A stretch of 32,000 bases of DNA from Desulfotalea psychrophila LSv54 (GTDB lineage Bacteria; Desulfobacterota; Desulfobulbia; Desulfobulbales; Desulfocapsaceae), in the NCBI RefSeq assembly GCF_000025945.1, contig NC_006138.1, positions 1,560,001-1,592,000 on the forward strand, read 5' to 3'. The position numbers and the translations under genes were made by a program. Below, piece by piece: positions 5,392-24,847 of this stretch (its first letter is position 1; each line of letters starts with the position of its first letter). Under the pieces are notes generated by a model. The model was not told where the DNA came from and did no database searches. It saw only the letters and a list, made by a program, of their open reading frames with translations.

Positions 5392-5394
5392 GCC

Positions 5395-8042: not shown

Positions 8043-8152
8043 TCATGTAATTCATCAAGTGTGATAAGTTCAAAGCTTACATCATCCCACCAAATACTTA
8101 AAATAATGTAATTTGTCTTTTCCCGCCCCGTTCTCTGTGTACCTGTGACAAT

Positions 8153-8302
8153 ATAAGAAGTTGGCCGATAGTTCTTGGTGGACTTTTGGCTGCCCGCAGG
8201 TCTCTGTTTACAGAAGCCAAATCTCTTTTGAGTTGATGTTGTTTTTTTGATATCATCCGTAGTGGATGCAGGTCTGCGTTTGTCGGCCTTTGAGTCAGGC
8301 AA
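8153..8302 (-). repeat. ~150-nt noncoding-looking repeat, copy A (inverted relative to copy B at 24287-24427)
   Basis: The reverse complement shares long identical runs with copy B: gccgacaaa, cagacctgcatccacta, ggatgatatcaaaaaa, caacatcaactcaaa, tggcttctg, ctatcggccaac. The two copies differ by a 13-nt indel. Confidence 0.7.
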
Positions 8303-8416
8303 GGTTGGCAGGCACCTGGAAAAGGAGGTGAGCCATCCCCGTATAAGTGGCTTTAGTTACATCTTTATCTGATTGATTAAGCAAGGAATTTTTTGAATTT
8401 AAAAGGAGAAAAAATT

Positions 8417-9741: not shown

Positions 9742-10284
9742 ATGAATAATTGGGATCAAGATAAATATCTAGAAGCGTGGAATTTTGCCTCTGCCATTCA
9801 TAATGGGCAAAAGATACCTGGAAGCGATATACCTTATATTAATCACCTTGGGCTCGTTGCAATGGAGGCGGTAGCAACTGTAGCCAATAAAAACATCCAA
9901 AATTCTAATATTCTTGTTTTGTGTGCGTTATTGCATGATTCTATTGAGGATACGGCAACGACCCATGAAGATATTAAAAAAATATTTGGCTCTGATATTG
10001 CTGATGGCGTTTTATCGCTCACTAAAAATAAAAAATTGCCTTCCAAGGTTGAACAAATGCTGGACAGTATTGCTAGAATAAAAACTCAACCTAAAGAGGT
10101 GTGGATGGTTAAGTTATGTGATCGAATCACGAATTTACAACCACCGCCAAGGCACTGGAACAAAGAAAAAATTGGCAAATATCAAAATGAAGCTCGCCTT
10201 ATATTAGAGAAATTAGGAGAGGCAAGCCAGTTTCTTGCAGAAAGATTAAAAATGAAAATTGATGCATATGACCAATATTTATAA
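9742..10284 (+). CDS. Stand-alone HD-domain protein of the RelA/SpoT hydrolase type (small alarmone hydrolase-like)
   Basis: PYINHLGLVAMEA...LLHDSIEDTATTHEDIKKIFGSDIADGVLSLT matches the (p)ppGpp hydrolase HD motif layout. About 180 aa, with no synthetase domain. Confidence 0.7.
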   Translation: MNNWDQDKYLEAWNFASAIHNGQKIPGSDIPYINHLGLVAMEAVATVANKNIQNSNILVLCALLHDSIEDTATTHEDIKKIFGSDIADGVLSLTKNKKLPSKVEQMLDSIARIKTQPKEVWMVKLCDRITNLQPPPRHWNKEKIGKYQNEARLILEKLGEASQFLAERLKMKIDAYDQYL

Positions 10285-10292
10285 AAATCATA

Positions 10293-10360
10293 GGCCCTGT
10301 TGCATAAATTATGAGGGAAAAAAATCAGCTCTTCTCTACTCCATCTCATCTGCTTATAGC
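10293..10360 (+). mobile_element. Partial MITE copy (one terminal repeat plus ~50 nt)
   Basis: ggccctgttgcataaattatgagggaaaaaaatcagctcttctctactccatc aligns with the left end of the full copy at 20623. I found no matching right end. Confidence 0.5.
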
Positions 10361-10807
10361 ACTCTTTGCTGTCCGCGGCACCATCGCCTGATATCTGTTT
10401 AATGCGACGACGAAGAGGGTTCAATAAGGGTCTCAAGGCCTTGGCATCACGAACTGACTTTATTGGAATTTCACTTAGGCGATTAGTTTCTGTATCAATA
10501 GCAAGGTGAAATTTGTGTCAAATTCTATGCCTTGCAGCTCCCTCTTCTTCATCTATCTTGCCCGTGCTTTCCGTCCTGCCCTATGATTATTAACTTCCCT
10601 TGGCCAGGCTGGTGAGACTTGAACTTGACTGCTTGAGCTCGATTGCATTGTCATGCTTCGTCCTCTCAATCCAGGTTGTTCAGTGTTGGACCAATTTTTG
10701 CTAACTATTCCAGTGAAATGTGGAGGGTGAGTCTGAATGATAGTTTCTGCAGAGAAAAGTATTGATTCTTTGTGTTTTTAAAATAATTTACATATAATTT
10801 TTTTATG

Positions 10808-10822
10808 AGTACTTAAAGTACT
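10808..10822. promoter_or_regulatory. Perfect 15-bp palindrome AGTACTT-A-AAGTACT upstream of the binding-protein/sensor operon
   Basis: Read directly, in an AT-rich region about 220 nt upstream of the ATG at 11045. A further AAGTAC half-site lies about 20 nt downstream. Confidence 0.25.
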
Positions 10823-11044
10823 ATAGCAAAAAGCCTAAAAGTACAGGGGATTTTTATGATTTCTTCAGGCGATTTTCAAACCAAAACAATTCGCTTATCC
10901 TTCCCTTTTGCTACCATGTCTCATCTACCCCTTCGCGCATCTTCATACCGTAGAGGCTTGTTGTGGGTATACAAATTATAAAATAATATGAGCTTTTAAA
11001 ATCATTGTCTATCCTTTTGCCTACGTTTTTAAGGAGAGCCCTTA

Positions 11045-12046
11045 ATGGAGCAGAACCGTAATCCTCTTGTCCATATCTACAGAGTAGCAACAGAGATATT
11101 TTTTATTGCCCTGCTCATCTGCTTCTCAGCAGCCCTATCCCTTGCTGCTAAACATGTCCGACTCGCATTGCAATGGTACCCGCAGGCACAATTTGCCGGC
11201 TATTACATGGCGCACGAAAAAGGAATATATGCCTCTCATGGTCTTGAGGTGGAAATACTTCCTGGCAGTGCAAATATGAATGGTTGTGAAAAAGTTCGCC
11301 TGGGAAAAGCAGAATTTGCTACAGCATTTTTATCTGATGCTTTGCAACTGCGCTCTCAAGGTGTACCTCTTGTTAATGTTGGTCAGTTTGTGCAGCGATC
11401 TGCGCTTATGCTGGTGGCCCGTAAGGATTCGGGGATAAAGACTATTCATGACCTTGATGGAGCCAGGATTGGCACCTGGGGTGAGGACTTTTGTCTGCAG
11501 CCTAAAGCCCTGTTCAAGCGTGAGGGGTTGAATGTGACACTTGTCAGGCAATCTCAGTCGTTTGAGCTGTTCATGCGCGGCGGCATCGATGTGGGTTTGG
11601 CTATGTGGTACAACGAGTATCATCGCTTGCTCTCCTATGGCTTGAATGAGGATGAGATGACCATCTTCTTTTTTAGCGATTTGGAGATGAATCTGCCAGA
11701 AGACGGAATTTACAGTCTGGAGTCTACCTTTAACGAATCTCCAGAGACTGCCCAAACGCTGGTGGAGGCGACTGCCGAAGGTTGGTTGTACGCCTTTGCT
11801 CACCCTGAAGAGACTGTCGACACCATGCTTCGCATCATGAAAGAGAGCAAGGTCAAGGCCAATAGAGCCCATCAAACATGGATGCTGGACCGCATGAAAG
11901 ATCTTCTCTTAGTCAAAGGGCAAAAGCAATTAAAGACGATACTGAAAGAGAGCGATTTCATTCGGACCCAAGAGGTGCTGCGCTTTCCAGGAGGCAAGCA
12001 GTCAGAGTTGATATACCAGGATTTCTACAAAGGAGACCTGCAATGA
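11045..12046 (+). CDS. NMT1/THI5-like (SsuA/TauA-type) substrate-binding protein, membrane-anchored
   Basis: N-terminal TM helix, then LQWYPQAQFAGYYMAHEKGIYASHGLEVEILPG, typical of this binding-protein fold. Its stop overlaps the next gene's start (ATGA). Confidence 0.75.
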   Translation: MEQNRNPLVHIYRVATEIFFIALLICFSAALSLAAKHVRLALQWYPQAQFAGYYMAHEKGIYASHGLEVEILPGSANMNGCEKVRLGKAEFATAFLSDALQLRSQGVPLVNVGQFVQRSALMLVARKDSGIKTIHDLDGARIGTWGEDFCLQPKALFKREGLNVTLVRQSQSFELFMRGGIDVGLAMWYNEYHRLLSYGLNEDEMTIFFFSDLEMNLPEDGIYSLESTFNESPETAQTLVEATAEGWLYAFAHPEETVDTMLRIMKESKVKANRAHQTWMLDRMKDLLLVKGQKQLKTILKESDFIRTQEVLRFPGGKQSELIYQDFYKGDLQ

Positions 12047-13977
12047 GAATAAACGGAATCGCCTTTCGGCTGGCGTCACTCACCCTGGCCTTTTCCACCC
12101 TGATTTTTGCCGTTATTATTGGCTATAATTATACAGTTTCACGTGGAATTATTGAAGATCTTGCTGAAGATCGGGGCACCCTTTTAGCCGCATCAACAGG
12201 TCAGCGAATAGCTGCAGTGCTGAACTCTATGGAAAAGGTTGCCGACTCTATTGCCTTTTCCCTTGAGGATGGCAACCTCAATGAAAAACGGCTCCAGGAA
12301 CTGGGGACGCAGGTCCTCATGAATAATCAGGAAATTTTTGGGACTGCCATAGCATTTGAACCCTACGGATTTGATCCGGAAAAGCTGTATTACGCCCCCT
12401 ACTCTTTTCGCTCACAGAACAAAATATCGTCCACCAACCTTGGCAGGCCGGGTTATCAGTATTTTTATATGGACTGGTATCAGTTGGCAAAAGAGTTGGA
12501 AAAATCGATTTGGACTGAACCCTACTTCGATACCGGAGGGGGGCATCAGCTTATGTCCACCTATTCCGTTCCCTTTTACCGTAAGGATGGAAAAGAAGAG
12601 GTGCTGGCGGGAGTGGTTACGGCTGATATCTCTCTTGACTGGATGCAGAAGCTGATAGCTGAGATCAATACAAATGAAACCGGCTATGTTTTTTTGCTTT
12701 CGCGCTACGGTACATACATTGCCCATCCCAATGCAAAGGTGGTGATGAACGAGACGATCTTCACCTCCGCTGAAAACCAGGGACAACCTCTTCTTCGTGA
12801 CATAGGGAGACGGATGGTTGCGGGCGAGTCTGGAGTTGAAGAACTGGCAGATTTACCTTTAACCGGGGACAGCTTTCTCTACTTTACCTCTTTACCTGAG
12901 CAAGAGTGGTCCATTGGGGTTGTTTTTCCAAAACAGGAGATGTTTGCCGGGGTAGCACGTTTGACCAAAGAGGTCGTCACCTTGGCTGTTCTTGGCTTTG
13001 TAGCTCTAGCCCTGCTCCTGATCTATCTTTCCTGTAAAATCACCCGTCCTCTTCGAAGTCTTACCGGCTCGGTAAATGACATTGCCTCTGGTAATTTGGA
13101 TGTAGATCTGCCTGCTGTTGTCGCCCAGGATGAGGTTGGCGAACTGACAGGATCAATTATAACCATGCGTGATTCCCTGAAACAATATATCGCTAACCTG
13201 ACGGAAACTACCGCGGTTAAAGAGCGCATCGAGTCTGAGCTTCGTATTGCCCATGATATTCAGATGTCTATTCTGCCTAAGCTCTTCCCGGCATTTCCCA
13301 ATAGATCTGAATTTGATATTTACGCAAGCATTGAGCCAGCAAGGGAGGTCGGTGGCGATCTCTATGATTTTTTCTTCATTGATGAGAATCGGTTCTGCTT
13401 TCTGGTGGGTGACGTCTCTGGTAAGGGCGTACCGGCTGCGTTCTACATGGCTGTCACCAAAACTCTGCTTAAGGTGGTCGCTGAAAGGGGGCTTAATCCG
13501 GGTGAAATACTGGCGAAGGTTAATAATGATCTGGCCGAAGATAACGATGCCTGTATGTTTGTCACCCTGTTTTTGGCGGTGATTGATATTGGTACTGGAG
13601 AGGTGCTTTATGCCAATGCAGGTCATAACCCGCCCCTCTTTATACCTAAGGGTGGAAAAGCAGAATGGATACCTCCATTAAACGAGCTGGTGGCAGGTGC
13701 AATGGAGGATTCTGTTTATACAACTAAATCTATGACCATGCAGCCCGGGGATACCCTCTTTATCTATACCGACGGGGTCACTGAAGCCATGGACAGTAAA
13801 CAGAGCCTCTATTCAGATGATCGTTTACTTACAGAAGTAGACCGCTGTAGCGGCCTTGCTGCGAAGCCGTTCATCCATGCCATCGATGACTCCATAAAAG
13901 CATTTACCGGTGGGGCCGAGCAATCGGACGATATAACCATGCTTGCCATGCAGTTTCTTGGCAAAAAGAATATTTAA
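12043..13977 (+). CDS. Sensor protein: Cache-HAMP-PP2C (SpoIIE/RsbU-type) serine phosphatase
   Basis: ATG at 12043 (MRINGIAFRLASLTLAF...). A periplasmic Cache-like segment (YYAPYSF...TEPYFDTGGGHQLMSTYSVPFY...GYVFLLSRYGTYIAHPN) is followed by a second TM helix, a HAMP region (RPLRSLTGSVNDIASGNLD), then AHDIQMSILP...GGDLYDFF...VGDVSGKGVPAAFYMA...GHNPP...TDGVTEA...DDITMLA. Confidence 0.85.
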   Translation: MRINGIAFRLASLTLAFSTLIFAVIIGYNYTVSRGIIEDLAEDRGTLLAASTGQRIAAVLNSMEKVADSIAFSLEDGNLNEKRLQELGTQVLMNNQEIFGTAIAFEPYGFDPEKLYYAPYSFRSQNKISSTNLGRPGYQYFYMDWYQLAKELEKSIWTEPYFDTGGGHQLMSTYSVPFYRKDGKEEVLAGVVTADISLDWMQKLIAEINTNETGYVFLLSRYGTYIAHPNAKVVMNETIFTSAENQGQPLLRDIGRRMVAGESGVEELADLPLTGDSFLYFTSLPEQEWSIGVVFPKQEMFAGVARLTKEVVTLAVLGFVALALLLIYLSCKITRPLRSLTGSVNDIASGNLDVDLPAVVAQDEVGELTGSIITMRDSLKQYIANLTETTAVKERIESELRIAHDIQMSILPKLFPAFPNRSEFDIYASIEPAREVGGDLYDFFFIDENRFCFLVGDVSGKGVPAAFYMAVTKTLLKVVAERGLNPGEILAKVNNDLAEDNDACMFVTLFLAVIDIGTGEVLYANAGHNPPLFIPKGGKAEWIPPLNELVAGAMEDSVYTTKSMTMQPGDTLFIYTDGVTEAMDSKQSLYSDDRLLTEVDRCSGLAAKPFIHAIDDSIKAFTGGAEQSDDITMLAMQFLGKKNI

Positions 13978-14001
13978 TAGAAGGATAACTGTTGGGCTCC
14001 C

Positions 14002-14160
14002 GATTGGTTGGCAAGCTTATGTAGTATGGGGAAGGGGAGAAGCATAGCCTCTCCCTGCGGGTGGTCTGCTCTGCTCATCAGGCAGTCGCGGCAGAAGCAG
14101 ATTACTCTGGAGGGGACGGGTATCGCGTCACAGGCGCGGCTTAGCGCGTCCTGCCCATGC
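14002..14160 (+). repeat. Dispersed repeat family R2, copy 1
   Basis: gattggttggcaagcttatgtag...ggcagaagcagattac is colinear with 23128-23292 (gattggttggcgaagattatgcag...ggcagaagaaacagattgttac). The spacing between the two anchors is 88 versus 90 nt. Confidence 0.4.
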
Positions 14161-15214
14161 CGCTGTTCGACAGGCTTTCCACTTCTTTAAAGAAAATCCG
14201 TTGCCGTTCGAGGAGTTCCAATGGTCTGTCCACAGGGGTCATGTGGGCGCTTCCCTCTATGATGTAATACTGAGGATTATTGGCAAATCCAGACTGCCAT
14301 TTTGTATAGGCTGGCGTACACAGATCGTCGCTTCCGCAAGTCATAAGAATAGGAACATTCAATTTGGACAGTTGCAAGGTTACGTCGATCGTTTTTAGCG
14401 TTCCCAGCACATTCAATTCCGAGCCGCTGGCAACCATAGTGTCGTGGATTGCGGCACTTCGTGCGGCAATCAATTTCTGCATTGCCTTAGGTAATGGCCA
14501 GGTGTGGGTAACATGCTTCTTACTGAACTCCAGGCAAGCTGCGTCGTAGTCGTTCTTTGTTCCTAAGCCCCTCAACTCATAATCATCTATCACCTGTCCG
14601 CCTTTTCCATTGAGGCAGCTCAAGCCCTGCTTAAGTGCCGGGGCAACATGAGTGCTGTAATAGGGAAAACTCAGTATTGGGCTATGGAGAGAAATGGACA
14701 ATATGCCGGTGGGGTGTTTGGCAGCAAATCCGACAGCCAGAGTGGTTCCCCATGAATGACCAATTAAATGGTACTTCTTCAAGCTCAGACCATCCCGAAT
14801 CGCTTTCACCTCAGCAAAATATCGTTCTGCAGTCCACAGGGACGGATTCTCCGGCCGCTCTGATTTTCCGCAGCCCAGTTGATCGTAGAAGATTACAGGG
14901 CGTTCATCACTCAATGCCTGAAACGCTACCAGATTATGATGATTTCCTCCGGGACCGCCGTGCAGAACCAAGGCTGGAGGGGCACTGCCGGAGCCAATTC
15001 TGCCGTACCATAATTTGTAGGTATGATCATTATAGGTGTAATCGATAAAACCTTCGCTATCATAAGCTGGTTCAGTTAAGATTTTGTCTATGAATGATTG
15101 CTCTTTATTCATGGTCTTTTCGTCTCGCGACATACAGCCGGTCATCATTACTATAATTAAGGTACAGAATACGCTCCAACATAACAAACATCTATGACTG
15201 ATTATGTATTTCAT
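14141..15214 (-). CDS. Prolyl aminopeptidase-type alpha/beta hydrolase (peptidase S33), probable lipoprotein
   Basis: LVLHGGPGGNHH, FYDQLGCGKSERP and the nucleophile elbow GHSWGTTLA. Lipobox-like IIVMMTGC. ATG at 15214 follows AGAGGG; the track start at 15232 is a TTG. Confidence 0.8.
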   Translation of the reverse strand: MKYIISHRCLLCWSVFCTLIIVMMTGCMSRDEKTMNKEQSFIDKILTEPAYDSEGFIDYTYNDHTYKLWYGRIGSGSAPPALVLHGGPGGNHHNLVAFQALSDERPVIFYDQLGCGKSERPENPSLWTAERYFAEVKAIRDGLSLKKYHLIGHSWGTTLAVGFAAKHPTGILSISLHSPILSFPYYSTHVAPALKQGLSCLNGKGGQVIDDYELRGLGTKNDYDAACLEFSKKHVTHTWPLPKAMQKLIAARSAAIHDTMVASGSELNVLGTLKTIDVTLQLSKLNVPILMTCGSDDLCTPAYTKWQSGFANNPQYYIIEGSAHMTPVDRPLELLERQRIFFKEVESLSNSGMGRTR

Positions 15215-15640
15215 AAGCCCTCTGTCAAACAAATTGTTATCCGGTTTTCTGATATCATCTCAAAACACAATTTGCCAAGGCAGCCATGATACCGGTTTTT
15301 TAACCGGATATCGCGACAGAACCTCTTGCTCTGGATGTGTCTTTCGCTGCCAGAAATTTCTCACTTCCCTCTTGTCGAATTCGCTCAAGATCCACTGATG
15401 AGGTCGTTAATATATAGTGCTTGTGAAACTTCACCTCAAAGTATTTGCTTATGTCATTATCACCATTTTATGGGCTTGGCTTTTTTCACTGTTTGCGAGA
15501 CAATTCTATAAAACAGTCACTCCTAGATTTTAGCGAAACAATAGACCTAAGGCAAGGATCAGTCATGAAAACCAGCACAGCCCATTACAGGCCAGCAAGA
15601 CTTTCTCGGCAAGCCATCAGTCACATTATAGATAGTGGCA

Positions 15641-15807
15641 GGCCTTGTTGCTTAAATAGAAGTTGTCAGCATTGCTCGATGATGTTTTCTTATAACATAG
15701 AGCATTGGAGGATGCAGGGGAGACAGCAGGAGAAAGATCGAAAACTGGCCGGAGTGGGGCAGAGAGAGGAGCTAGTTTTTTTCCCTCATGCTTTATGCAA
15801 TAAGGCC
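15641..15807 (-). mobile_element. MITE, short variant (167 bp), inverted relative to the copy at 20623
   Basis: Ends are ggccttgttgcttaaat (left) and, reverse-complemented, ggccttattgcataaag (right). An internal 36-nt run gatgatgttttcttataacatagagcattggaggat is identical to the reverse complement of the 20623 copy. Confidence 0.7.
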
Positions 15808-15950
15808 ACAAGGCCATCCAACCGACTCCGCAACCTTGCCCATTTTTTGCAAAAGAGATAGCAATAAATAGGGCCACCTTGCCCCTTCATCGCTAATTTT
15901 AGCCAACTTTGCCTCTTAATGAGGCCTTATTTTTCGGAGATCATCAATAA

Positions 15951-16515
15951 ATGGATATATCAGCAATAGCAAAATTTATAAAATCACCTACCTTGTATAT
16001 TTTTCTTACCTGTATCATTAGTGGCATGTTCTTGTTTTTAACTGAATCTTTTTTAACTGATTTAGAGCTTATTTCGTTTGAGAAGGATTATAAAAAATGG
16101 GTTACTGTTGTCTTTCTTTTCTCGTTAGGTTTTTTTGTTTTGAACCTACTGAATATGGCATATAAAAACTATCAAAAGAACTACCAGGAAAAAATTGTTG
16201 AAGCTGAAATTAATGAACATAAAAAAGATTCTCTAAAAAAATAGTCGTGATGCCAAAGCCTTAACGTCAACTTGGGATGATCGCGAAAAATCGATATTAA
16301 GAGAGTTTTTTGTTCAAGAAAAAAAGATGATTGAAATGTCAAATGACGACCCTGTAGCTCTTGGTCTTATAGATAAGCACATTATAAGCCAAGTTGGCAA
16401 AAACGATACTGATAATAATATAATTGGTTTGACCTGCTACTTTGAAATTACTGAAGAGGCGAAAGAACTTATTGAACAGTTTGGGCTTGATAAAACCAAT
16501 CAGGTAAACAACTAA
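15951..16515 (+). pseudogene. Superinfection-exclusion protein B (SieB)-like gene split by a frameshift in an A7 tract
   Basis: ORF1 (15951-16244) is a two-TM N-terminus followed by a Lys-rich helix. The +1 frame is open from 16237 and reads KNSRDAKALTSTWDDREKSILREFFVQEKKMIEMSNDDPVALGLIDKHIISQVG, as in SieB-like proteins. The junction is the A-run at 16235-16241, and removing one A joins the two frames. Confidence 0.55.
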
Positions 16516-16723
16516 ATTCAGGCTTCGCAAGATTTTGAGCAGCGGATCATGGCTAAGATGCTATAAAATTTTTGAAATAAATATAACAAGGCAAATTAAT
16601 TCGGATTGGTAAAAGGCGCGGTGTTTTTAAGCCCTCCATGGGCATTTGTCTTGGGGTGGCACGGGGATAGTGCTGCTTCACGGGCAAGCAGCACCAAGCA
16701 TCTCTCGCCACTCTATAACAAAG

Positions 16724-18040
16724 TTACCCCAACTCTTCTGGCAGAATCATATTGAGAATAATGGCAATAAGAGCCGCCGGAAGAATTCCCGAAGTAAGGA
16801 GGATTTTGGTGGTTCCAGGAAGATGTTGTAGCGCTTCCGGAACTGCCTGAAAACCAAGTCCTATGGAGAGAGCCAGGGCGAGGATAAGCATATTACGCTT
16901 ATTCCATACCACATCACTGAGCATATTAATGCCAGCGGAGATCACCATACCAAACATCACAATCACACTTCCGCCTAAAACAGCAATGGGCATCGCCGAA
17001 ATAACTGCTCCCACCTTTGGTACAAGTCCCGCCATAATCAGAAAAAGAGCGCCAATAGTTACAACGTGACGACTCATCACCCCGGTCATGGAGACAAGGC
17101 CAACATTTTGTGAAAAAGAGGTATTGGGAAGGGCGCCAAAAAAAGCACCTAAGGTTGTGCCAAGCCCATCGGCCATGGTTGCCCCGGCAATCTCTTTTTC
17201 GGTTGCTTCACGGCCAGCGCCACCCTGGGTTATCCCCGAGACATCGCCCACGGTTTCAATGGCGGAAACAAAAGCCATCAGTGACATGGCAAAGACACTG
17301 CTTAGGCTCAGTTCAAAACCAAAGTGCAGTGGAGTAGGCATTGCAAACCAGGCTGCGTTTTCGATATGGGAAAAGTTGACCATTCCCATGGATATTGCGA
17401 CAAGATAGCCTACGATAAGACCAATAAGAACCGAGGCGGTGGAGAGCATGCCCCGTCCAAAAAATTTTAGGATCAGGGTAACAAAAAGAACGGTAAGCGA
17501 GAGTCCCCAATGTTGCATGGAGCCAAACTCCTCGGTTCCCATAAGCGGTACGCCACCTGCTGCATACTGAATACCGATAGGAATTAATGAAAGACCAATG
17601 GTAAGCACCACAATTCCTGTTACCAGGGGCGGCAAAAAATTACGGATTCGGCCAATAACTGTGCCAAGGAAAAAGTGAAAAATGCCACTGAGCATAATGC
17701 TTCCGTAAAGAGCCGAAATTCCAGCAATTTTAACCAAAGGGATCATGATTGGCAGGAAGGCAAATGAAGTACCTTGGACAATGGGTAGGCGGGCGCCAAC
17801 AGGACCAAGTCCCACGGTTTGCAAGAGGGTGGCGATACCAGCAAAGGTCATAACCATCTGAATCATATAGACCATCTCAGGAGAACCAAAGGTGAATCCT
17901 GCGGCCAGGGAGATGATAATTGCCGGGGTGATATTTGAGATAAACATCGCCAGTACATGCTGGATGCCAAGGGGGATAGCCAGGTGAAGAGGTGGAAGAT
18001 AATTGGGATCTTTCAACTGCTCTTTCTTTGTAAAGCTCAT
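16724..18040 (-). CDS. Nucleobase:cation symporter-2 (NCS2) family permease (xanthine/uracil-type)
   Basis: Polytopic ORF with NCS2-like segments (LGIQHVLAMF, FGALPNTSFSQNVGLVSMTGV). I place the start at ATG 18040 (MSFTKKEQ...). The track's upstream extension looks non-coding. Confidence 0.85.
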   Translation of the reverse strand: MSFTKKEQLKDPNYLPPLHLAIPLGIQHVLAMFISNITPAIIISLAAGFTFGSPEMVYMIQMVMTFAGIATLLQTVGLGPVGARLPIVQGTSFAFLPIMIPLVKIAGISALYGSIMLSGIFHFFLGTVIGRIRNFLPPLVTGIVVLTIGLSLIPIGIQYAAGGVPLMGTEEFGSMQHWGLSLTVLFVTLILKFFGRGMLSTASVLIGLIVGYLVAISMGMVNFSHIENAAWFAMPTPLHFGFELSLSSVFAMSLMAFVSAIETVGDVSGITQGGAGREATEKEIAGATMADGLGTTLGAFFGALPNTSFSQNVGLVSMTGVMSRHVVTIGALFLIMAGLVPKVGAVISAMPIAVLGGSVIVMFGMVISAGINMLSDVVWNKRNMLILALALSIGLGFQAVPEALQHLPGTTKILLTSGILPAALIAIILNMILPEELG

Positions 18041-18298
18041 AGTGTCAACCTTAAAAAAGCGGGAACATATTCGAAAGCTGACAAAATAGCGACACAAATT
18101 ACAATAAAACCCCTTTTTAACGAACAAAGTGAGCTTTCTGGGGAGGAACAGCTTTTAGCAACTGCGGAAAAACGGTCGACGACTTATTTTTCAGCCAGCG
18201 TCTTTTGGCGAATTCATGACGGGGAAGGAAAATAGGCGAGGAGTGTTATCCATTAAGATGATTCCGTATTCCTATGCTCCCGGGCGGAAGTATTAGCT

Positions 18299-18330
18299 CA
18301 TAATAATTTCTGACGGACAAAATTATTATG
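18299..18330. promoter_or_regulatory. Perfect 11-bp inverted repeat CATAATAATTT-N10-AAATTATTATG upstream of the NCS2 permease
   Basis: Read directly, about 260 nt upstream of the permease start. It could be an operator or an RNA hairpin. Confidence 0.3.
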
Positions 18331-18420
18331 TATTGGAGGTGTTAGGTACTTGTAGGGATATTGAGTAAAATGTCTTCTTGTGTTGTTTTGCTGCTGCTCC
18401 GTAAAAGGAACCCTGGAGTG

Positions 18421-18469
18421 AAATAAGGGCTTAACAGTTGGGTAAAACTGTTAAGCCCTTATTTGTTTT
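18421..18469 (-). terminator. Strong hairpin terminator downstream of rhlE (potentially bidirectional)
   Basis: AAATAAGGGCTTAACAG-ttgggtaaa-CTGTTAAGCCCTTATTT, a 17-bp perfect stem with T-rich flanks. Confidence 0.65.
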
Positions 18470-18577
18470 GCAGAGTACTCACGTGATTGGACCTACCCCA
18501 AAGAAGGGGAGACACTCTCTTTCTGATAAATCCCCACCTGATAACTATTAAACGCCGTTAAAGCAGTGGTCTCTGGC

Positions 18578-19852
18578 TTAAAGATATTCTTTCCAGTGCT
18601 TGCGTTTTGTTTTTGCGGGTTTTCCTGCCTGCCCCTTAGATTTACCTTTACGCCGAGGTGGATCAGGTTCAAAATTACCATACTCCTCATCTTCATCTGA
18701 TAACACTACTGCTGGCTTCTTGCTCGGCGCAAAACCTTGGACGATATCACGTTCAAATTTACGGCCAATCAGCTTCTCAATAGAGGCGAGTTGCTGAGCT
18801 TCATCTTCACTGAAAAATGAAACCGCTAAGCCAGAGGTACCAGCACGGCCGGTACGACCAATGCGATGCACATAGTCTTCTGCTACATAGGGGAGATCAA
18901 AGTTAATCACGCACGGTAGTTGATGAACATCAATGCCCCGAGAGGCAATATCTGTTGCGACCAATACCACAACACTCCCGTTTTTAAAACCATCTAAGGC
19001 ACGTGTCCGTGCATATTGGGTTCTGTTGGCATGAATTGATTCGGCATTAATGCCAGCTTCTTTGAGCTGAGTAACTAAGGTGTCGGCTCCACGCTTGGTA
19101 CGACTAAAGACCAAAAGTTGCTGCCAATTGTACTTTTTAATTAGGTGAATCAATAATGCACTCTTTCGTTCCTGATCTACAGGATGCATTTTCTGCTTAA
19201 TGGAATCGACAATATTTTTATCGGTATCCACTTCAATCAAAACAGGATCATGTAGCATGCCCCCTGCAAGTGACTTGATCTCTTCTGAAAATGTAGCTGA
19301 GAACATCAAAGTTTGACGCTTGGCTGGAAGTAATGTTTGGATGTGACGGATATCGTCGATAAAGCCTAAATCCAACATACGATCTGCTTCATCGAGTACC
19401 AATATTTTAAGTGCGTCAAAGCTCACTGCCTGTTGATTATAAAGATCAAGCAAACGGCCAGGTGTTGCAACAAGCACATCTAGACCAGCCTGTAGTTTGG
19501 CTATCTGTGGCTCAATTCTTACTCCACCAAATGCTGCGCCAGTGCGAATATTCATCATGCTGCCATAGGTTTGAACACTTTCGGCAACTTGAGCTGCAAG
19601 CTCACGGGTTGGTGTAATAACAAGCGCACGTACTGTGCATGGCTGTGGACTATCGCCACCAGACAATAACTGTACCATAGGTAAGGTAAAGCCAGCCGTT
19701 TTTCCCGTGCCAGTGTGTGCCACCGCCATAACATCACGCTGATTCAGCACCACTGGAATAGCTTCCGTTTGTATCTGTGATGGAGTGGTGTATCCTTGCT
19801 CTGCGACGGTTTGCAAAAGTTCATCACACAAGCCTAAAATGGCAAATGACAT
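18578..19852 (-). CDS. rhlE: DEAD-box ATP-dependent RNA helicase
   Basis: Q-motif GYTTPSQIQ, AHTGTGKT, PTRELA, VLDEADRMLDLGF, SAT, HRIGRTGRAG, and a basic C-terminal tail. Confidence 0.9.
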   Translation of the reverse strand: MSFAILGLCDELLQTVAEQGYTTPSQIQTEAIPVVLNQRDVMAVAHTGTGKTAGFTLPMVQLLSGGDSPQPCTVRALVITPTRELAAQVAESVQTYGSMMNIRTGAAFGGVRIEPQIAKLQAGLDVLVATPGRLLDLYNQQAVSFDALKILVLDEADRMLDLGFIDDIRHIQTLLPAKRQTLMFSATFSEEIKSLAGGMLHDPVLIEVDTDKNIVDSIKQKMHPVDQERKSALLIHLIKKYNWQQLLVFSRTKRGADTLVTQLKEAGINAESIHANRTQYARTRALDGFKNGSVVVLVATDIASRGIDVHQLPCVINFDLPYVAEDYVHRIGRTGRAGTSGLAVSFFSEDEAQQLASIEKLIGRKFERDIVQGFAPSKKPAVVLSDEDEEYGNFEPDPPRRKGKSKGQAGKPAKTKRKHWKEYL

Positions 19853-19971
19853 GGGTATTCCTTGGATTGATTACTGTTTTCAGAGAGTACCATCCCACCC
19901 GGGAGCATGGGAATGAGTTGGGCATTAGGGGCGGGTGATACTCTGCATAGGTTCATGTTAGCACAAATCTC

Positions 19972-20052
19972 TTGGCAACCAGCGAAGCGCATCCCAAACA
20001 GCGCCTTGGTATGTGCGCTAATATTTATTATGAGTATCTGCTTGGTTGGCAA
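19972..20052. other. Weak attC-like element bounded by TTGGCAAC / GTTGGCAA
   Basis: cTTGGCAACCagcgaag...ctgcttgGTTGGCAACC. The flanks are partly self-complementary, and the element lies directly after the stop of the 140-aa ORF. Orientation is ambiguous because the core is near-palindromic. Confidence 0.25.
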
Positions 20053-20064
20053 CCTAAGGCTGGC

Positions 20065-20487
20065 CTATTCTGCTAAGAGCTTTTTAAGCAGCTCATCTAT
20101 TTCCCTTTGAAGTTCTTTATCTACAATTTTATTCGCACTAATTTTGGCTTCTTGGAGATTCTTGAGAGCTTCGTCAGTTCGACCTAATTCTACCTGTAAT
20201 GTAGCCATAGAGTATGCAATTGAAGACATATGGTCTTTTGAATTTATAGCGATTGCCTTCTCCAGGGCCTTTTCGTAGCCAGTTACGGCAACTTCCAAAT
20301 TTTCTGTAAAATCCGCAAGTGTTTCCCACTGTTCAGGGTGATCTTTGGCGGTATTTTCGTTATCGATGCAAATAGCCTTGAGTTCTGCATAGAGCCTATC
20401 AAATTCCTTTTCACTCTTTTGCTTAGACGCATGCATGAGCTTTTCAGACAGGGTATAGACGGCCTTATATATCTTGCTATTAATCAT
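20065..20487 (-). CDS. Hypothetical 140-aa all-helical (TPR-like) protein
   Basis: ORF only, in an AT-rich segment. The helical-repeat flavour (…AYSMATLQVELGRTDEALKNLQEAK…) is suggestive, with no firm family. Confidence 0.5.
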   Translation of the reverse strand: MINSKIYKAVYTLSEKLMHASKQKSEKEFDRLYAELKAICIDNENTAKDHPEQWETLADFTENLEVAVTGYEKALEKAIAINSKDHMSSIAYSMATLQVELGRTDEALKNLQEAKISANKIVDKELQREIDELLKKLLAE

Positions 20488-20622
20488 TACTCATTACCTT
20501 TTCTCTACAAAATGATTTTTTAGTGAGATGAAACAAAGTACATTATGCTGGAGGTGGACAGCAAGCGCAAGATATTAAAATTTGAAAAGTGGGTGAGCGG
20601 GAGCCGGTTTTCGATCCTACAC

Positions 20623-20905
20623 GGCCTTGTTGCATAAATCATGAGGGCAGAAAATCATCTTCCCTCCACTCCATTACATCTTAGCAAACAGTCTCTCGAA
20701 CAGGCATTCCAAAAGCGGTAATCTTGTTTAAAGCTTCAATCGCTTTTTTGTCCACCCAAAACGTTAACATCATTACTTCAGTGCCCTTATACTCCGACCA
20801 ATTTTTGATCTTTCCCCTGCTCTCTCCCCTGTATCCTCCAATGCTCTATGTTATAAGAAAACATCATCGAACAATGCTCGCAACTTCTATTTGTGCAACA
20901 AGGCC
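20623..20905 (+). mobile_element. MITE, long variant (283 bp) with 17-nt terminal inverted repeats
   Basis: The left end is ggccttgttgcataaat. The right end reverse-complemented is ggccttgttgcacaaat (16 of 17). It has no ORF of its own, and its right part overlaps the 3' end of ORF 20864-21322. Confidence 0.75.
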
Positions 20906-21322
20906 CCATGGGGTTAATAATTTTATTGTATTTATTGTGTATTTAGCACTTTTATTAAGTGCATTTATATCTCGTGTAACACAATTAATTAAACCCCACC
21001 CATCTTGGTGTTTCCAATAATTTGCTCCCGCATTTATTACTTTAATATACGAAAGCTCATCTGTTATTTTTTTGCCTAGCTTTAAAGCATCATCTTTTCT
21101 AACATCTAATTGAGGGTATGTGCTTGAAATATATCGTTGAATTAGTGAAAACCCTACACCGATAAAATATTCACCTTTGTCGCATAATCTATCTGAATCA
21201 GGATCAGCAGAAAGGCTTATTTCATTGTTAATAGCTTTAACTTTAAAATCAAGGTGTTCTAGCATTTCTGTAAGAAAATAGAAATCACTGTCAGCAAACT
21301 CTTTTCCAATTTTGAGATACAT
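20864..21322 (-). CDS. Hypothetical 152-aa protein; the last ~13 codons are supplied by the inserted MITE
   Basis: ATG at 21322 lies 31 nt after the attC-like core and is preceded by ACGGAG. The reading frame crosses into the MITE after ...LLTPWG. Contains ...INAGANYWKHQDGW... Confidence 0.55.
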   Translation of the reverse strand: MYLKIGKEFADSDFYFLTEMLEHLDFKVKAINNEISLSADPDSDRLCDKGEYFIGVGFSLIQRYISSTYPQLDVRKDDALKLGKKITDELSYIKVINAGANYWKHQDGWGLINCVTRDINALNKSAKYTINTIKLLTPWGLVAQIEVASIVR

Positions 21323-21353
21323 ATAACAGCTCCGTACACTGAACTATAGATAA

Positions 21354-21461
21354 GCCTAACGCTTCGTTAACTGGCGCATAGGTTGCTATTGTTTTTACTC
21401 TTTTTCTTTTGCAAAAACGATGACAGCCGTTTACGTGTCCGCGTTTAACGACTTGTTGTAT
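21354..21461 (-). other. attC-like site (minus-strand top strand)
   Basis: The minus strand reads (tg)ATACAAC-AAGTC-GTTAAAC...GTTAAC-GAAGC-GTTAGGC. That is an inverse core (6 of 7 to RYYYAAC) overlapping the stop codon, 5-nt spacers, L boxes pairing with one extra A, and a perfect GTTRRRY core. Confidence 0.55.
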
Positions 21462-22099
21462 CAATGGCTAATGATTTCAATTAGTATTTCTCCGTACTTA
21501 TTTTTTGTGTATATAACCCCACCTGAATCTTCTTCTCCAGCTACCCCACCATCAATGCCGCCGAAGCTTAAAAAACCTACTTTATAAAGCTCTCCAGCAG
21601 TAAGTTGGTCATTTGGACAACCATTTGAAAAATCAACGATGTACTTTAAATCACCATAAAATGAGCGCTCAATCATCAGGCATATACGAATAGTTTCATC
21701 ATAATTACATTGATTCATGAAAAGACGTTCAAATACTTTTGCGTACAATTCGAATTTCCTTGAATCATCAGCTTTTTCAATAAGAGATAATACAGTTTCT
21801 CCAAATCTTTCTCGTTGTTCAGCCTCAAGCATTTCCTCAGCAATAAACCGAAGCCGCGCCTCCTCATTAGTTTTATTTAGCTCAGATAGGAAACGGATAA
21901 GTTTTTTTACATACTGCCTTTCTTTTACCGCAATACCAGTCTTGAAAATAGCTATGGCAGAACCTACTATTGGAATGTCCTTTAAAAAACCATTTTCCAA
22001 TACGGAATCTACCGCTATCTCAGCTAGGTTAGTTCCAGTACCTTCAAGCTTTTGTCCCATAGTTTGGACTATCGATTCTTCTAATTTCAATTCACTCAT
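21461..22099 (-). CDS. Hypothetical 212-aa protein
   Basis: ATG at 22099 lies 32 nt after the preceding attC-like core. No family recognised (…FLKDIPIVGSAIAIFKTGIAVKERQYVKKLIRFLSEL…). Confidence 0.6.
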   Translation of the reverse strand: MSELKLEESIVQTMGQKLEGTGTNLAEIAVDSVLENGFLKDIPIVGSAIAIFKTGIAVKERQYVKKLIRFLSELNKTNEEARLRFIAEEMLEAEQRERFGETVLSLIEKADDSRKFELYAKVFERLFMNQCNYDETIRICLMIERSFYGDLKYIVDFSNGCPNDQLTAGELYKVGFLSFGGIDGGVAGEEDSGGVIYTKNKYGEILIEIISH

Positions 22100-22131
22100 A
22101 GTAACTCTAGATTTAAGTTATTCACTTATGG

Positions 22132-22198
22132 ATATAACGCTAAGTTGAGCGGCGCCGATTACGGCGTTCGAGTGCAGGGCGCGAACGCACTGTTAGCC
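22132..22198 (-). other. attC-like site (best example)
   Basis: The minus strand reads GGCTAAC-AGTGC-GTTCGCGCC...GGCGCCGCTCAAC-TTAGC-GTTATAT. From memory, this is the same box and spacer architecture as classical attC sites such as attC-aadA7 (GTCTAAC-AATTC-GTTCAAGC...GCTTAAC-TCAAGC-GTTAGAT). Confidence 0.6.
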
Positions 22199-22375
22199 TG
22201 CACTTAAAACTGGGCTTATTTCGCTCTCCCTAGTGGTTATTGACAGGCCAGCATCATCTTTCAGTTTGATAGGTTTAGTCGAATAGCACATTTACCATAT
22301 GCCTAACATTGATTGATATCGAAAAAAGACTTTTTATAACATATTGTTGGCCTAAAGATGCTGTTTTTTAGTTGA

Positions 22376-22445
22376 CCCAAACAGTAGGTTCGCGCCCTGG
22401 TTCGAGTGCTGCTTTCAGTCGAGCAGCTCGAACGACTGGTTAGAT
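22376..22445 (-). other. attC-like site with a degenerate 3' core
   Basis: The minus strand reads ATCTAAC-CAGTC-GTTCGAGCTGCT...AGCAGCACTCGAAC-CAGGGC..., then GTTTGGG. The inverse core is perfect and starts 4 nt after the stop at 22450. The R-prime side is irregular. Confidence 0.4.
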
Positions 22446-22449
22446 GTTT

Positions 22450-22958
22450 TTATAATTTATCTGGTTTTTTAATCATTTCTTTTTCATACTGTTGAATTAG
22501 ATTTTTATTTATACATTCTTGTACATTACGAGTAAGAGAATATAAGTTTTTTTCTGATCTAATAGGCAAATCTAAAGCAAATTTAGTTAAATGTACTGAC
22601 AGCGTTTTGTGATTTTTAGATTTTAATTGTAACGTTAGGTTAGATTTTTTTTTTCTAAATGACAAATTATTTCATACTGATGTTGTCTTTTTTGAAACTC
22701 TGGCTCTTCATTGGAGGAATTTTGCAAAACACTGTTAGATGCATGATAGTTTAATAAGACTTGATTGATTTGTATGAGCAATGCTTCATCTTGCTTTTTT
22801 TTATTAATTGACTCTTGATTTCTTTGGGCAAAAAACTTTCTCCCACAGCCAATAATGCACCCAGAATTATATATAGTAGTTCCATTTTTTACACCTAACA
22901 AGTTATTCTTCACTTTCCTGATATCATCCCAAATCACAATTTGATAATGCTTTTTCAT
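22450..22958 (-). pseudogene. Hypothetical gene split into 115-aa and 71-aa ORFs at an A10 tract
   Basis: The A-run (plus-strand T-run 22645-22654) sits exactly at the junction: ...ICHLEKKNLT-stop versus (TTG)SFRKKKSNLTLQLK... One extra A would give a single product of about 175-180 aa. I place the start at ATG 22958 (MKKHYQIV...). Confidence 0.45.
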
Positions 22959-23034
22959 CCATGATCCTGCCAGCCTTACCAATCAACTTACAGCACTCCA
23001 ACCTAAGCGCCCACGGCTACCCTCCTTACAAAGG

Positions 23035-23100
23035 GGTGTGCTAACAGTCTCCAACCACTGTCCTACACTATTACTTTTTTATGAGCAATAGTTAAGCACC
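23035..23100 (-). other. Weak attC-like element upstream of the first cassette-like ORF
   Basis: On the minus strand, GGTGCTTAAC...GTTAGCACACC are complementary ends, and GCTTAAC fits RYYYAAC. The inner arms are asymmetric. Confidence 0.25.
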
Positions 23101-23127
23101 TTTAGGTGTACGTGCGGGGTCCGCTAC

Positions 23128-23292
23128 GATTGGTTGGCGAAGATTATGCAGCAACATCGGGATAAAAATGAAAAAGAGAGGCACGGGTGTGGAATGGATG
23201 GGGCCATTGCCTATGCTGGCAGAAGAAACAGATTGTTACAAGGGTTGGGCTGCGATAAGGCCCGCAGCACCGGGCAATTGGGGCGCAGCGGA
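23128..23292 (+). repeat. Dispersed repeat family R2, copy 2
   Basis: See 14002-14160. Both copies have the same orientation and begin with gattggttggc. Confidence 0.4.
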
Positions 23293-23382
23293 AAGCTATC
23301 CACCCACTATATGCCATAAATCGGTTTTCTTCTTCAGCTTGAGTGCTGTTGTTATGCGCTTTTTAGAAGTCCAGTAAGGTTG

Positions 23383-24111: not shown

Positions 24112-24286
24112 GTGTACCCCCAAAACTCCATTCGCATAAAAAAATATCGTCCAGAAACGGGATATCTTTCAGCCGAAGTCAACCTGACAAGGCGATTTCT
24201 ATCCTGATAATATGCTGTTAACCTGACGCCATTCAATAAAGAGCAATAACCGGACAATCTCCCGCATGAGCCAGATTTTTTTCTGG

Positions 24287-24762: not shown

Positions 24763-24847
24763 GTCGATATTAGCTCTTATTCCGTCTTATAATAATCCAA
24801 AACCTATATTGATACGCAAGAGGGATAAAAGATTTTTCAAGGGAGGA

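What the first reader, a model, noticed from the sequence alone, without database searches (positions are those of the whole stretch)
10293..20905. Apparently new MITE family with GGCCTTGTTGCAYAAAT terminal inverted repeats; one copy rewrites the 3' end of a cassette ORF
There are three copies: a 283-bp copy (20623-20905), a 167-bp copy in the opposite orientation (15641-15807), and a one-ended fragment (10293-10360). The two complete copies share about 115 nt at one end, including an identical 36-mer, and about 45 nt at the other. The long copy has an extra internal block of about 115 nt bounded by a short ggagt repeat. None encodes a transposase. The 20623 copy is inserted so that ORF 20864-21322 reads through the element end and acquires a new C-terminus (...TPWG|LVAQIEVASIVR). 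Short peptide matches between spurious ORFs (REEL(I/V)FFPH.LCN in 10182-10436 and 15445-15861) are explained by the element. I could not identify a clear target-site duplication or the parent IS.
Basis: seen in the sequence. Interest (0 to 1): 0.5.

Follow-up and report, generated by a model that had tools for sequence, protein, structure and literature searches.

The report
Decayed IS903-type insertion sequence relics
The three repeats are worn-down, gene-less leftovers of an ordinary IS5-family (IS903/ISAba12-type) jumping gene in the Desulfotalea psychrophila chromosome. One of them sits at a rearrangement junction that cut off the end of a neighbouring gene, which is a routine kind of genome scar.

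Summary
The window is Desulfotalea psychrophila LSv54, genes DP1404-DP1414.

The family can be named. The terminal repeats GGCCTTGTTGCA(Y)AAAT match IS903 at 16 of 18 positions and ISAba12/MITEAba12 at 15 of 16. That places them in the IS5 family, IS903 group, not IS6/IS26.

- **Copy A** is the right end of a decayed insertion sequence. A transposase pseudogene lies beside it (NCBIfam transpos_IS5_2, E 8e-10).
- **Copy C** still carries transposase N- and C-terminal codons at the same offsets as in IS903, so it is an internal-deletion derivative.
- **Copy B** is a larger deletion with its junction at a GGAGT microhomology.

In other genomes the same repeat bounds 1.04-1.13 kb elements and 74-343 bp MITEs. 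Most of the MITE-sized elements and five of the full-length ones have 9-bp target duplications. The window copies have none, and each has a different structure, so movement as MITEs is not shown.

Copy C lies exactly at a synteny breakpoint with a related Desulfotalea genome. It truncates a ~187-aa ORF after codon 139, and the missing 3' end is absent from the window. The ORF shows no integron features in what was examined; it lies in a low-GC stretch beside tRNA-Pro.

Verdict: a new member of a known kind, of low interest. The host genome was not searchable, so copy number and an intact parent element remain unknown.

The parts
10293..10351 (-). Copy A: right-end (IRR) terminal ~59 nt of a decayed IS903-group insertion sequence. 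The terminal repeat is GGCCCTGTTGCATAAAT.
   Evidence: 81% identical to 20623-20681 and 84% to 15763-15807. Similarity to C does not extend further inward.
10344..10575 (-). Transposase pseudogene with one in-frame stop, covering roughly residues 118-205 of an IS903-type DDE transposase. It includes ESTGK (corresponding to IS903 DSTGLK) and SGDGAAD (corresponding to IS903 SADGAYD). It reads towards the terminal repeat at 10293. The C-terminal third is deleted and the N-terminal part is undetectable.
   Evidence: tblastn with the IS903 transposase, residues 151-221, E 4.6e-9. Custom HMM of nine IS903-group transposases, i-E 7e-12. NCBIfam NF033579 transpos_IS5_2 E 8.4e-10 and Pfam DDE_Tnp_1 E 7.8e-5.
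15641..15807 (+). Copy B: 167-bp MITE-sized deletion derivative. The left end (IRL) is at 15641 (GGCCTTGTTGCTTAAAT) and the right end (IRR) at 15807 (GGCCTTATTGCATAAAG on the minus strand). It consists of a 115-nt IRL arm joined to a ~52-nt IRR arm at GGAGT.
   Evidence: The two repeats match at 14/17 positions. The residual KIENW codons correspond to the transposase N-terminus.
15808..15815 (+). The 8 nt ACAAGGCC directly after copy B's right end, which repeat the tip of the terminal repeat. This is either a tandem 8-nt duplication (TAAGGCCA / CAAGGCCA) or a remnant of a second element end.
   Evidence: Read. Not analysed further.
20623..20905 (-). Copy C: 283-bp internal-deletion derivative. 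The left end (IRL) is at 20905 (GGCCTTGTTGCACAAAT) and the right end (IRR) at 20623 (GGCCTTGTTGCATAAAT). The two repeats match at 16/17 positions.
20681..20845 (-). Residual transposase reading frame inside C. N-terminal codons (…KIKNWSEY…LTFWVDKKAIEA) are fused to C-terminal codons (LNKITAFGMPVRETVC) followed by a stop. There are stop codons upstream, so it is not a functional gene.
   Evidence: The KIKNW motif starts 94 nt from the IRL, against 96 nt in IS903. The distance from the stop codon to the element end is 58 nt, against 56 nt in IS903. Alignment to IS903 residues 22-50 and 306-320; HMM positions 14-50, i-E 6e-4 on the region.
20864..21322 (-). Truncated ORF, annotated as a 152-aa hypothetical protein of D. 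psychrophila. Codons 1-139 are native. Codons 140-152 and the stop codon (20864-20905) are element sequence.
   Evidence: 100% identical to P0001. The relatives listed are mostly 175-205 aa and align only to residues 1-140.
20537..20622 (.). Core-genome flank on the IRR side of C, upstream of the TPR gene 20065-20487. It is homologous to a related Desulfotalea genome right up to the element boundary.
   Evidence: Alignment to L014 7666-7718 scores 51.75, against 17.0 ± 3.2 for shuffles, with 0 of 1000 shuffles reaching it.

Best explanation
The three repeats are non-autonomous, mutated relics of an IS5-family insertion sequence of the IS903 group (ISAba12-like) in the Desulfotalea psychrophila LSv54 chromosome.

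The parent would be an element of about 1.05 kb. It would carry 17-18 bp terminal repeats beginning GGC, encode one DDE transposase and make 9-bp target duplications.

- Copy A is a partly deleted full element: its right end plus a transposase pseudogene.
- Copy C lost about 770 bp internally and keeps the first ~50 and last ~17 transposase codons.
- Copy B keeps only 115 nt of the left end and ~52 nt of the right end, joined at a GGAGT microhomology.

What is shown: the family assignment, the internal-deletion origin, the absence of target duplications, and the position of C at a junction between core genome and a low-GC stretch beside tRNA-Pro, where an ORF loses its 3' end.

What is inferred: the junction at C was produced by an element-mediated event. 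This would be either an adjacent deletion by intramolecular transposition or recombination between two copies. The truncated ORF's 13-residue element-encoded tail would then be a by-product with no selected function. Given the 10-20% divergence between copies and the mutated terminal repeats, the copies are probably no longer mobile.
For: Identity of the host:
- The window's ORFs are identical to D. psychrophila LSv54 proteins DP1405, DP1407, DP1410 and others.

Terminal repeats:
- GGCCTTGTTGCATAAATC matches the IS903 repeat GGCTTTGTTGAATAAATC at 16/18 positions. The IS903 sequence was read from an annotated IS903 copy, L016.
- The match to MITEAba12/ISAba12 (GGCTTTGTTGCACAAA / GGCTTTGTTGCATAAA, 9-bp duplication) is 15/16, and the C/T difference between the two ends is the same (PMC6382973).

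The same 17-mer in other genomes (scan stopped at its 120-locus limit, so more exist):
- It bounds 1041-1133 bp elements, five of them with perfect 9-bp duplications. One encodes a 311-aa transposase that hits NF033579 transpos_IS5_2 at 267 bits, the model that IS903 transposase hits at 353 bits.
- It also bounds 74-343 bp elements; six of the nine have 7-9 of 9 duplication matches.

Transposase remnants in the window:
- Beside A: NF033579 E 8.4e-10, DDE_Tnp_1 E 7.8e-5, tblastn E 4.6e-9, custom HMM i-E 7e-12.
- Inside C: residual codons collinear with IS903, with the motif at nt 94 against 96 and the stop-to-end distance 58 against 56 nt.

The junction at C:
- Relatives of the ORF are mostly 175-205 aa and share a conserved C-terminus (YTCSNLLA…LSSLLP…WR..LD) that the window lacks on the other side of C and everywhere else.
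- Homology to the Desulfotalea sp. genome GCA_047518385.1 (L014) runs exactly up to C's right-end boundary and then stops.
Against: - No 9-bp target duplication flanks B or C, so insertion by transposition is inferred from structure and is not seen directly.
- No intact parent element is in the window. The host chromosome and plasmids could not be searched in any collection.
- No element elsewhere shares more than about 27 nt with these copies beyond the terminal repeat.
- The C-terminal codons in C could alternatively be read as a more N-terminal transposase segment: FGMPVR resembles FGMPLR near residue 70 of the TM6 element's transposase. C would still be a deletion derivative, but the exact junction is uncertain.
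- The upstream two-fifths of the transposase next to A is undetectable.
Confidence: 0.85

Rival explanations
1. A genuine, amplifying MITE family. A short non-autonomous element was mobilised in trans by a co-resident IS903-group transposase and spread to many sites in the genome. B and C would be two of its members.
For: - B and C are MITE-sized, lack a transposase gene and share a 115-nt arm at 90% identity.
- Elements of 74-343 bp with the same terminal repeat exist in other phyla; six of the nine found have near-perfect 9-bp duplications.
- MITEAba12 is an experimentally mobile precedent, and only 40% of its copies keep their duplications.
Against: - The three window copies have three different internal structures.
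- None has a target duplication.
- The copies differ by 10-20%, and B's right-end repeat is mutated at position 7.
- The left-end pattern found nothing in the genome or metagenome collections. Element-frame peptides found nothing among 5.8 billion proteins.
- The decisive host genome was not searchable.
Confidence: 0.3
2. The elements derive from an IS6/IS26-family insertion sequence, whose terminal repeat consensus is GGTTCTGTTGCAAA. The lack of duplications and the adjacent deletion would then be typical IS26-style replicative events.
For: G1, G2, G7 and G10 of the IS6/IS26 consensus are present, and 10 of 14 positions match (PMC6807381). There are no duplications, and there is an adjacent loss of DNA at C.
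Against: - The match to IS903 (16/18) and to ISAba12 (15/16) is much better.
- The adjacent transposase remnant hits the IS5 model NF033579, not an IS6 model.
- Complete elements with this exact repeat are about 1.05-1.13 kb and have 9-bp, not 8-bp, duplications.
Confidence: 0.02
3. The repeats are not mobile-element relics at all. They would be chance repeats, a segmental duplication, or a structured RNA or regulatory repeat.
For: Folding z-scores are mildly negative, -1.8 and -2.5, mostly because the terminal repeats pair with each other.
Against: - There are five repeat matches against 0.22 expected.
- Similarity ends exactly at the repeats and the flanks are unrelated.
- There are no Rfam hits other than one tRNA.
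- Transposase homology is found inside and beside the copies.
Confidence: 0.01

Closest known systems
MITEAba12 and its parent ISAba12 (also IS17, ISAba5/7/10/13/40) of Acinetobacter: IS5 family, 9-bp target duplications (PMC6382973)
   Same: - The terminal repeats differ at one position only (GGCTTTGTTGCACAAA / …GCATAAA against GGCCTTGTTGCACAAAT / …GCATAAAT), and the C/T difference between the two ends is the same.
- Both are short elements without a transposase gene.
- A MITEAba12 copy also fuses its end to the 3' end of a host ORF and supplies a premature stop.
- Many MITEAba12 copies lack duplications.
   Different: - MITEAba12 is a homogeneous 113-bp family (90 copies, 90% of them the same length). 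It has demonstrated transposition and an internal sequence unrelated to its parent.
- The Desulfotalea copies are 167 and 283 bp, differ from one another in structure, retain recognisable transposase codons, have no duplications and show no evidence of mobility.
- The host is a different phylum (Desulfobacterota).
- Similarity is confined to the terminal repeats.
IS903 (IS5 family, IS903 group; 1057 bp, 18-bp terminal repeats, 9-bp duplication)
   Same: - 16/18 terminal repeat positions match.
- Both have a DDE transposase of the same NCBIfam model (NF033579).
- The transposase N-terminal motif and the stop codon lie at the same offsets from the element ends (94 against 96 nt, 58 against 56 nt).
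   Different: - There is no intact transposase gene here.
- Protein identity of the remnant to IS903 is only about 32%.
- There are no target duplications.
- All copies carry internal deletions.
IS903-group elements and short derivatives with the identical 17-mer repeat in other genomes. Examples are the TM6 bacterium element L061 5870-6914, the Bacteriovoracaceae elements L030/L031/L051, and the MITE-sized elements L034, L092 and L134.
   Same: The terminal 17 nt are identical. The full elements are 1.04-1.13 kb and the derivatives 74-343 bp, which matches the size range of copies B and C.
   Different: Many of those elements keep 9-bp duplications. None shares subterminal sequence with the Desulfotalea copies beyond about 27 nt, so none is the direct parent.

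Membership tests
IS5 family, IS903 group (as relics of a member) | Terminal inverted repeats of about 16-18 bp beginning GGC and resembling GGCTTTGTTG(A/C)A(T/C)AAAT | tested here: met
   16/18 to IS903 (L016). 15/16 to ISAba12/MITEAba12. The two repeats match at 16/17 positions in C and 14/17 in B.
IS5 family, IS903 group (as relics of a member) | Encodes an IS903-type DDE transposase | tested here: met
   Met only as a pseudogene. The translation of 10344-10575 hits NF033579 at E 8.4e-10 and DDE_Tnp_1 at E 7.8e-5. N- and C-terminal codons survive in C. There is no intact gene in the window.
IS5 family, IS903 group (as relics of a member) | 9-bp target site duplication | tested here: not met
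   Copy C has ATCCTACAC on one side and CCATGGGGT on the other. Copy B has ATAGTGGCA and ACAAGGCCA, which match at 5/9. Elements with the same repeat in other genomes do have 9-bp duplications.
IS5 family, IS903 group (as relics of a member) | Element length of about 1.0-1.1 kb | tested here: not met
   B and C are 167 and 283 bp. A is a one-ended remnant of at least 283 bp (10293-10575). All are deletion derivatives.
Prokaryotic MITE | Short (under about 500 bp), with terminal inverted repeats and no transposase gene | tested here: met
   Met for B (167 bp) and C (283 bp). Not met for A, which abuts a transposase pseudogene.
Prokaryotic MITE | Flanking target site duplications | tested here: not met
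   None at B or C.
Prokaryotic MITE | Several copies of the same structure at different sites, as evidence of mobilisation as a MITE | tested here: inconclusive
   The three window copies have three different deletion junctions. A genome-wide count was impossible because the LSv54 genome is absent from every searchable collection.
Prokaryotic MITE | A co-resident autonomous element with matching terminal repeats | not testable with these tools
   The host genome is not searchable. Only a dead remnant (copy A) lies in the window.
IS6/IS26 family | Terminal repeat consensus GGTTCTGTTGCAAA, an IS6-type transposase and an 8-bp duplication | tested here: not met
   10/14 match to the consensus. The transposase remnant hits the IS5 model, not an IS6 model. 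There is no 8-bp duplication.
   No attC search was run. Pfam scans of 20 of the larger ORFs showed no integrase. The ORF lies in a low-GC stretch (35-45%) next to tRNA-Pro.

The most novel reading that the evidence does not exclude
The copies belong to a still-active, so far unregistered MITE family of Desulfotalea. An intact IS903-group element elsewhere in the LSv54 genome would mobilise it, and its insertions and adjacent deletions would repeatedly remodel the borders between the core genome and genomic islands. The break between the tRNA-Pro-adjacent island and the core genome at 20623-20905 would be one example.
Probability: 0.12. Interest if true: 0.3.

Novelty: new member of a known kind. 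Interest (0 to 1): 0.15.

Why it matters
The practical value is mainly in annotation.

- The annotated 152-aa 'hypothetical protein' at 20864-21322 is a chimeric, truncated ORF and should be flagged as a pseudogene.
- The stretch at 10293-10575 is an unannotated insertion-sequence remnant.
- One boundary of the low-GC, tRNA-Pro-adjacent stretch is an element-associated rearrangement junction. This helps explain the poor gene-order conservation between Desulfotalea genomes here.

The finding adds one more lineage (Desulfobacterota) to the wide distribution of ISAba12/IS903-like terminal repeats and their short derivatives. It does not reveal a new mechanism.

Tried and rejected
**Searches that found nothing useful**
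- The 25-nt left-end pattern (GGCCNTNTTGCATAAANNATGAGGG) gave 0 hits in both genome contigs and metagenome contigs.
- blastn of the 283-bp copy against plasmids gave no match.
- A concatenated six-frame translation of the elements against 5.8 billion proteins gave no hit at E ≤ 10.
- Exact-protein look-ups of window genes, and accessions of the LSv54 plasmids, were not on record, so the host genome is unavailable.
- The six viral-contig hits to the 17-mer were single matches showing no further similarity to the elements; I took most for chance matches.
- No paper mentioning ISDps, or MITEs in Desulfotalea, turned up.

**Empty-site comparisons**
- Relatives of the SpoIIE-type gene (L137, L138; 72-75% aa) share only the NMT1-SpoIIE gene pair, so they give no empty sites for A or B.
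- The 90%-identity protein clusters of neighbouring genes hold only LSv54 sequences.
- Only L014 was informative, and only for one side of C.

**Hypotheses tested and dropped**
- IS6/IS26 parentage was my first idea from the GG…TGTTGCA motif. It was rejected.
- Inversion between B and C was tested by comparing reverse-complemented flanks. They match at only 3/9 and 2/9, so it was rejected.
- Extended homology between A and C beyond 59 nt was not significant: score 19 against 20.5 ± 3.6 for shuffles.
- The missing ORF C-terminus was searched for across the whole window and not found.
- RNA-gene readings were rejected: no Rfam match and only weak folding z-scores.
Full report
**1. The observation**

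The repeats are real. A repeat scan of the whole window finds three relationships:
- an inverted 115-nt pair, 15641-15755 and 20791-20905, 90% complementary;
- a 45-nt inverted pair, 10293-10337 and 15763-15807, 84%;
- a 59-nt direct pair, 10293-10351 and 20623-20681, 81%.

A three-way alignment and a sensitive self-BLAST confirm that there are only these three copies. They also show that similarity stops at the GGCC tips and that the flanks are unrelated.

The 17-nt terminal repeat GGCCTTGTTGCAYAAAT occurs five times with at most 2 mismatches. Shuffled sequence gives 0.22 expected, and 0 of 100 shuffles reached five.

**2. Source and context**

The window is Desulfotalea psychrophila LSv54, genes DP1404 to DP1414. 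Several ORFs are identical to deposited proteins from a 3,523,383-bp contig.

The gene order in the window is as follows:
- pheS-pheT at 27503-30994;
- tRNA-Pro at 26564-26641;
- a low-GC stretch (35-45% G+C) at about 20906-26560, holding an Mrr-type nuclease gene and unknown ORFs;
- copy C;
- core genes: a TPR protein, a DEAD-box helicase, a permease and a SieB-like ORF;
- copy B;
- a hydrolase gene, a SpoIIE-type phosphatase gene and an NMT1-type gene;
- the copy A region;
- an HD-domain gene and a DUF1499 gene.

Nothing examined points to an integron. Pfam scans of 20 of the larger ORFs returned no integrase, but attC sites were not searched for.

**3. Which element family**

My first lead was IS6/IS26, but its published consensus GGTTCTGTTGCAAA matches at only 10 of 14 positions (PMC6807381).

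The IS903 end matches much better. I read it from an annotated Klebsiella plasmid copy (L016): GGCTTTGTTGAATAAATC, element length 1057 bp. The window repeat matches it at 16 of 18 positions.

The published repeats of MITEAba12 and ISAba12 are GGCTTTGTTGCACAAA and GGCTTTGTTGCATAAA, with 9-bp duplications. They differ from the window repeats at a single position and show the same C/T difference between the two ends (PMC6382973).

**4. Independent test in other genomes**

Scanning one genome per species for the exact 17-mer hit its 120-locus limit, so more matches exist. I then paired repeats in inverted orientation.
- There are full elements of 1041-1133 bp. Five of them have perfect 9-bp duplications (L061, L030, L051, L031, L102).
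- There are short elements of 74-343 bp. Six of these nine have 7-9 of 9 duplication matches (L034, L134, L092, L078, L069, L074).

The 311-aa transposase of L061 hits NCBIfam NF033579 (transpos_IS5_2) at 267 bits. The IS903 transposase hits the same model at 353 bits. ORFs resembling the IS903 transposase were found in about 22 of the 120 loci.

So this terminal repeat marks IS903-group elements and their MITEs across several phyla. None shares more than about 27 nt with the Desulfotalea copies, so none is the direct parent.

**5. Transposase remnants inside the window**

- **Next to copy A.** tblastn with IS903-group transposases hits 10550→10344 on the minus strand, directly beside copy A (E 4.6e-9). 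An HMM built from nine such transposases gives i-E 7e-12. The translation of this stretch has one internal stop. It hits NF033579 at E 8.4e-10 (model positions 130-201 of 289) and Pfam DDE_Tnp_1 at E 7.8e-5. Copy A is therefore the right end of a decayed insertion sequence, not an isolated fragment. Its C-terminal third is deleted: the reading frame meets the terminal ~59 nt at about 10344-10351. Its N-terminal part is no longer detectable.
- **Copy C.** Read from 20905 towards 20623, copy C carries …KIKNWSEY…LTFWVDKKAIEA fused to LNKITAFGMPVRETVC and a stop codon. These align to IS903 transposase residues 22-50 and 306-320. The KI(K/T)NW motif starts 94 nt from the end, against 96 nt in IS903. 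The stop codon lies 58 nt from the other end, against 56 nt. Copy C is an internal-deletion derivative lacking about 770 bp. An alternative reading places FGMPVR near residue 70 of the transposase. That would change the exact junction but not the conclusion.
- **Copy B.** It keeps the same 115-nt left arm as far as KIENW and joins it to the right end at GGAGT.

**6. Are they MITEs that moved as MITEs?**

B and C meet the structural definition. However, the three copies have three different deletion structures and none has a target duplication. They differ from one another by 10-20%, and B's right repeat is mutated at position 7. Independent decay of three full-length insertions fits these facts at least as well as amplification of one short element.

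The decisive genome-wide search could not be run. The host genome is absent from every collection available here.

**7. The ORF at 20864-21322**

Its relatives are mostly 175-205 aa. They align only to residues 1-140 of the window ORF and then continue with a conserved tail, YTCSNLLA…LSSLLP…WR..LD. In the window the native sequence ends at …TPW. The next codon, GGC, is the tip of the terminal repeat. Twelve more element codons and an element stop codon follow.

The missing tail is not on the far side of C in any frame. It is not anywhere else in the window either.

On that far side, the sequence upstream of the TPR gene is homologous to a 97%-related Desulfotalea genome (L014) right up to the element boundary at 20622/20623. 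The alignment scores 51.75 against 17 ± 3.2 for shuffles, with 0 of 1000 shuffles reaching it. Beyond the boundary the relative carries a DUF445 gene instead.

Copy C therefore sits exactly on a synteny breakpoint between core genome and the low-GC stretch. The most economical reading is an element-mediated adjacent deletion or a recombination between two copies. Either would also explain the missing duplications. This step is inference. A test for inversion between B and C was negative (flank matches of 3/9 and 2/9).

**8. Verdict**

The elements are relics of a well-known kind, IS5 family, IS903/ISAba12-like. This specific sequence appears undescribed in the material I could search. The effect on the ORF is truncation at a rearrangement junction, not a meaningful new C-terminus. 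This is a new member of a known kind and of low interest.

Noticed in passing
L007 6390-10564; also L008-L011: Intact relatives (83% aa) of the truncated ORF are the last gene of a conserved cassette: a 300-aa protein, a 563-aa reverse transcriptase (RVT_1), a 329-aa protein and the 187-aa protein. A Trypsin_2 protease gene often follows. In L007 the cassette lies inside a P4-like island with an integrase and a Phage_GPA gene. It looks like a reverse-transcriptase-associated defence-type module. The window has only the 187-aa family member, with none of the partner genes.
   Followed up: partly
window 24948-24984 vs 26566-26602: A 37-nt direct repeat (81%) of the 3' half of tRNA-Pro lies 1.6 kb from the tRNA gene and brackets the Mrr-type nuclease gene 25047-26168. 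This looks like att-site duplication from integration of an island at tRNA-Pro. No integrase turned up in the Pfam scans of the larger ORFs of the low-GC stretch 20906-26560.
   Followed up: no
window 5384-5413, 6176-6244 vs 26514-26578: There are further copies of a tRNA-3'-end-like motif (GGTCGGAGTGAGAG). There is also a 65-nt hairpin-plus-tRNA-end repeat (83%) far from any detected tRNA gene. These may be relics of other tRNA-targeted integrations.
   Followed up: no
window 8142-8304 vs 24287-24438 (inverted): A second, unrelated repeat of about 170-180 nt; its core is 78 nt at 91% identity. One copy is near a thermonuclease-like pseudogene (7761-8042) and the other is inside the low-GC stretch. 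Pfam finds nothing in the overlapping small ORFs.
   Followed up: partly
window 15800-15815: Copy B's right end is followed by an 8-nt repeat of the tip of the terminal repeat (TAAGGCCA CAAGGCCA). It may be a slippage duplication or the stump of another element end.
   Followed up: no
window 18313-20622 vs L014 7666-9897: Only the TPR-helicase block (94.7% nt identity over the 2.2-kb blastn match, window 18313-20536) is shared with the closely related Desulfotalea sp. genome, and both flanks differ. The second breakpoint, at about 18313, has no element copy in the window. The window also carries a 34-nt insertion relative to L014 in the region upstream of the TPR gene.
   Followed up: partly
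window 18578-19852: Apart from the Desulfotalea genome, the best matches to the DEAD-box helicase are at 74-80% identity. Those that carry an organism name are mostly from Gammaproteobacteria (Paraglaciecola, Piscirickettsiaceae, Cocleimonas), with one labelled Alphaproteobacteria. This hints at horizontal acquisition of this cold-associated RhlE-type gene.
   Followed up: no
window 4974-5298: A run of degenerate short repeats (GTCAGGGCTTAGGTCAGGG-like units, spaced in multiples of 6) inside ORF 4558-5334. It probably encodes a low-complexity Gly/Gln/Leu-rich segment.
   Followed up: no
L034 2369-2488, L092 1419-1543, L134 5272-5385, L069 3104-3281, L074 5766-6000, L078 286-432: MITE-sized elements (114-235 bp) with the same terminal repeat and 7-9 of 9 matches in a 9-bp duplication occur in Gammaproteobacteria, Chlamydiae, Bdellovibrionales, Armatimonadetes and other genomes. 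Short derivatives of this IS903-like group appear widespread and seem largely uncatalogued.
   Followed up: partly
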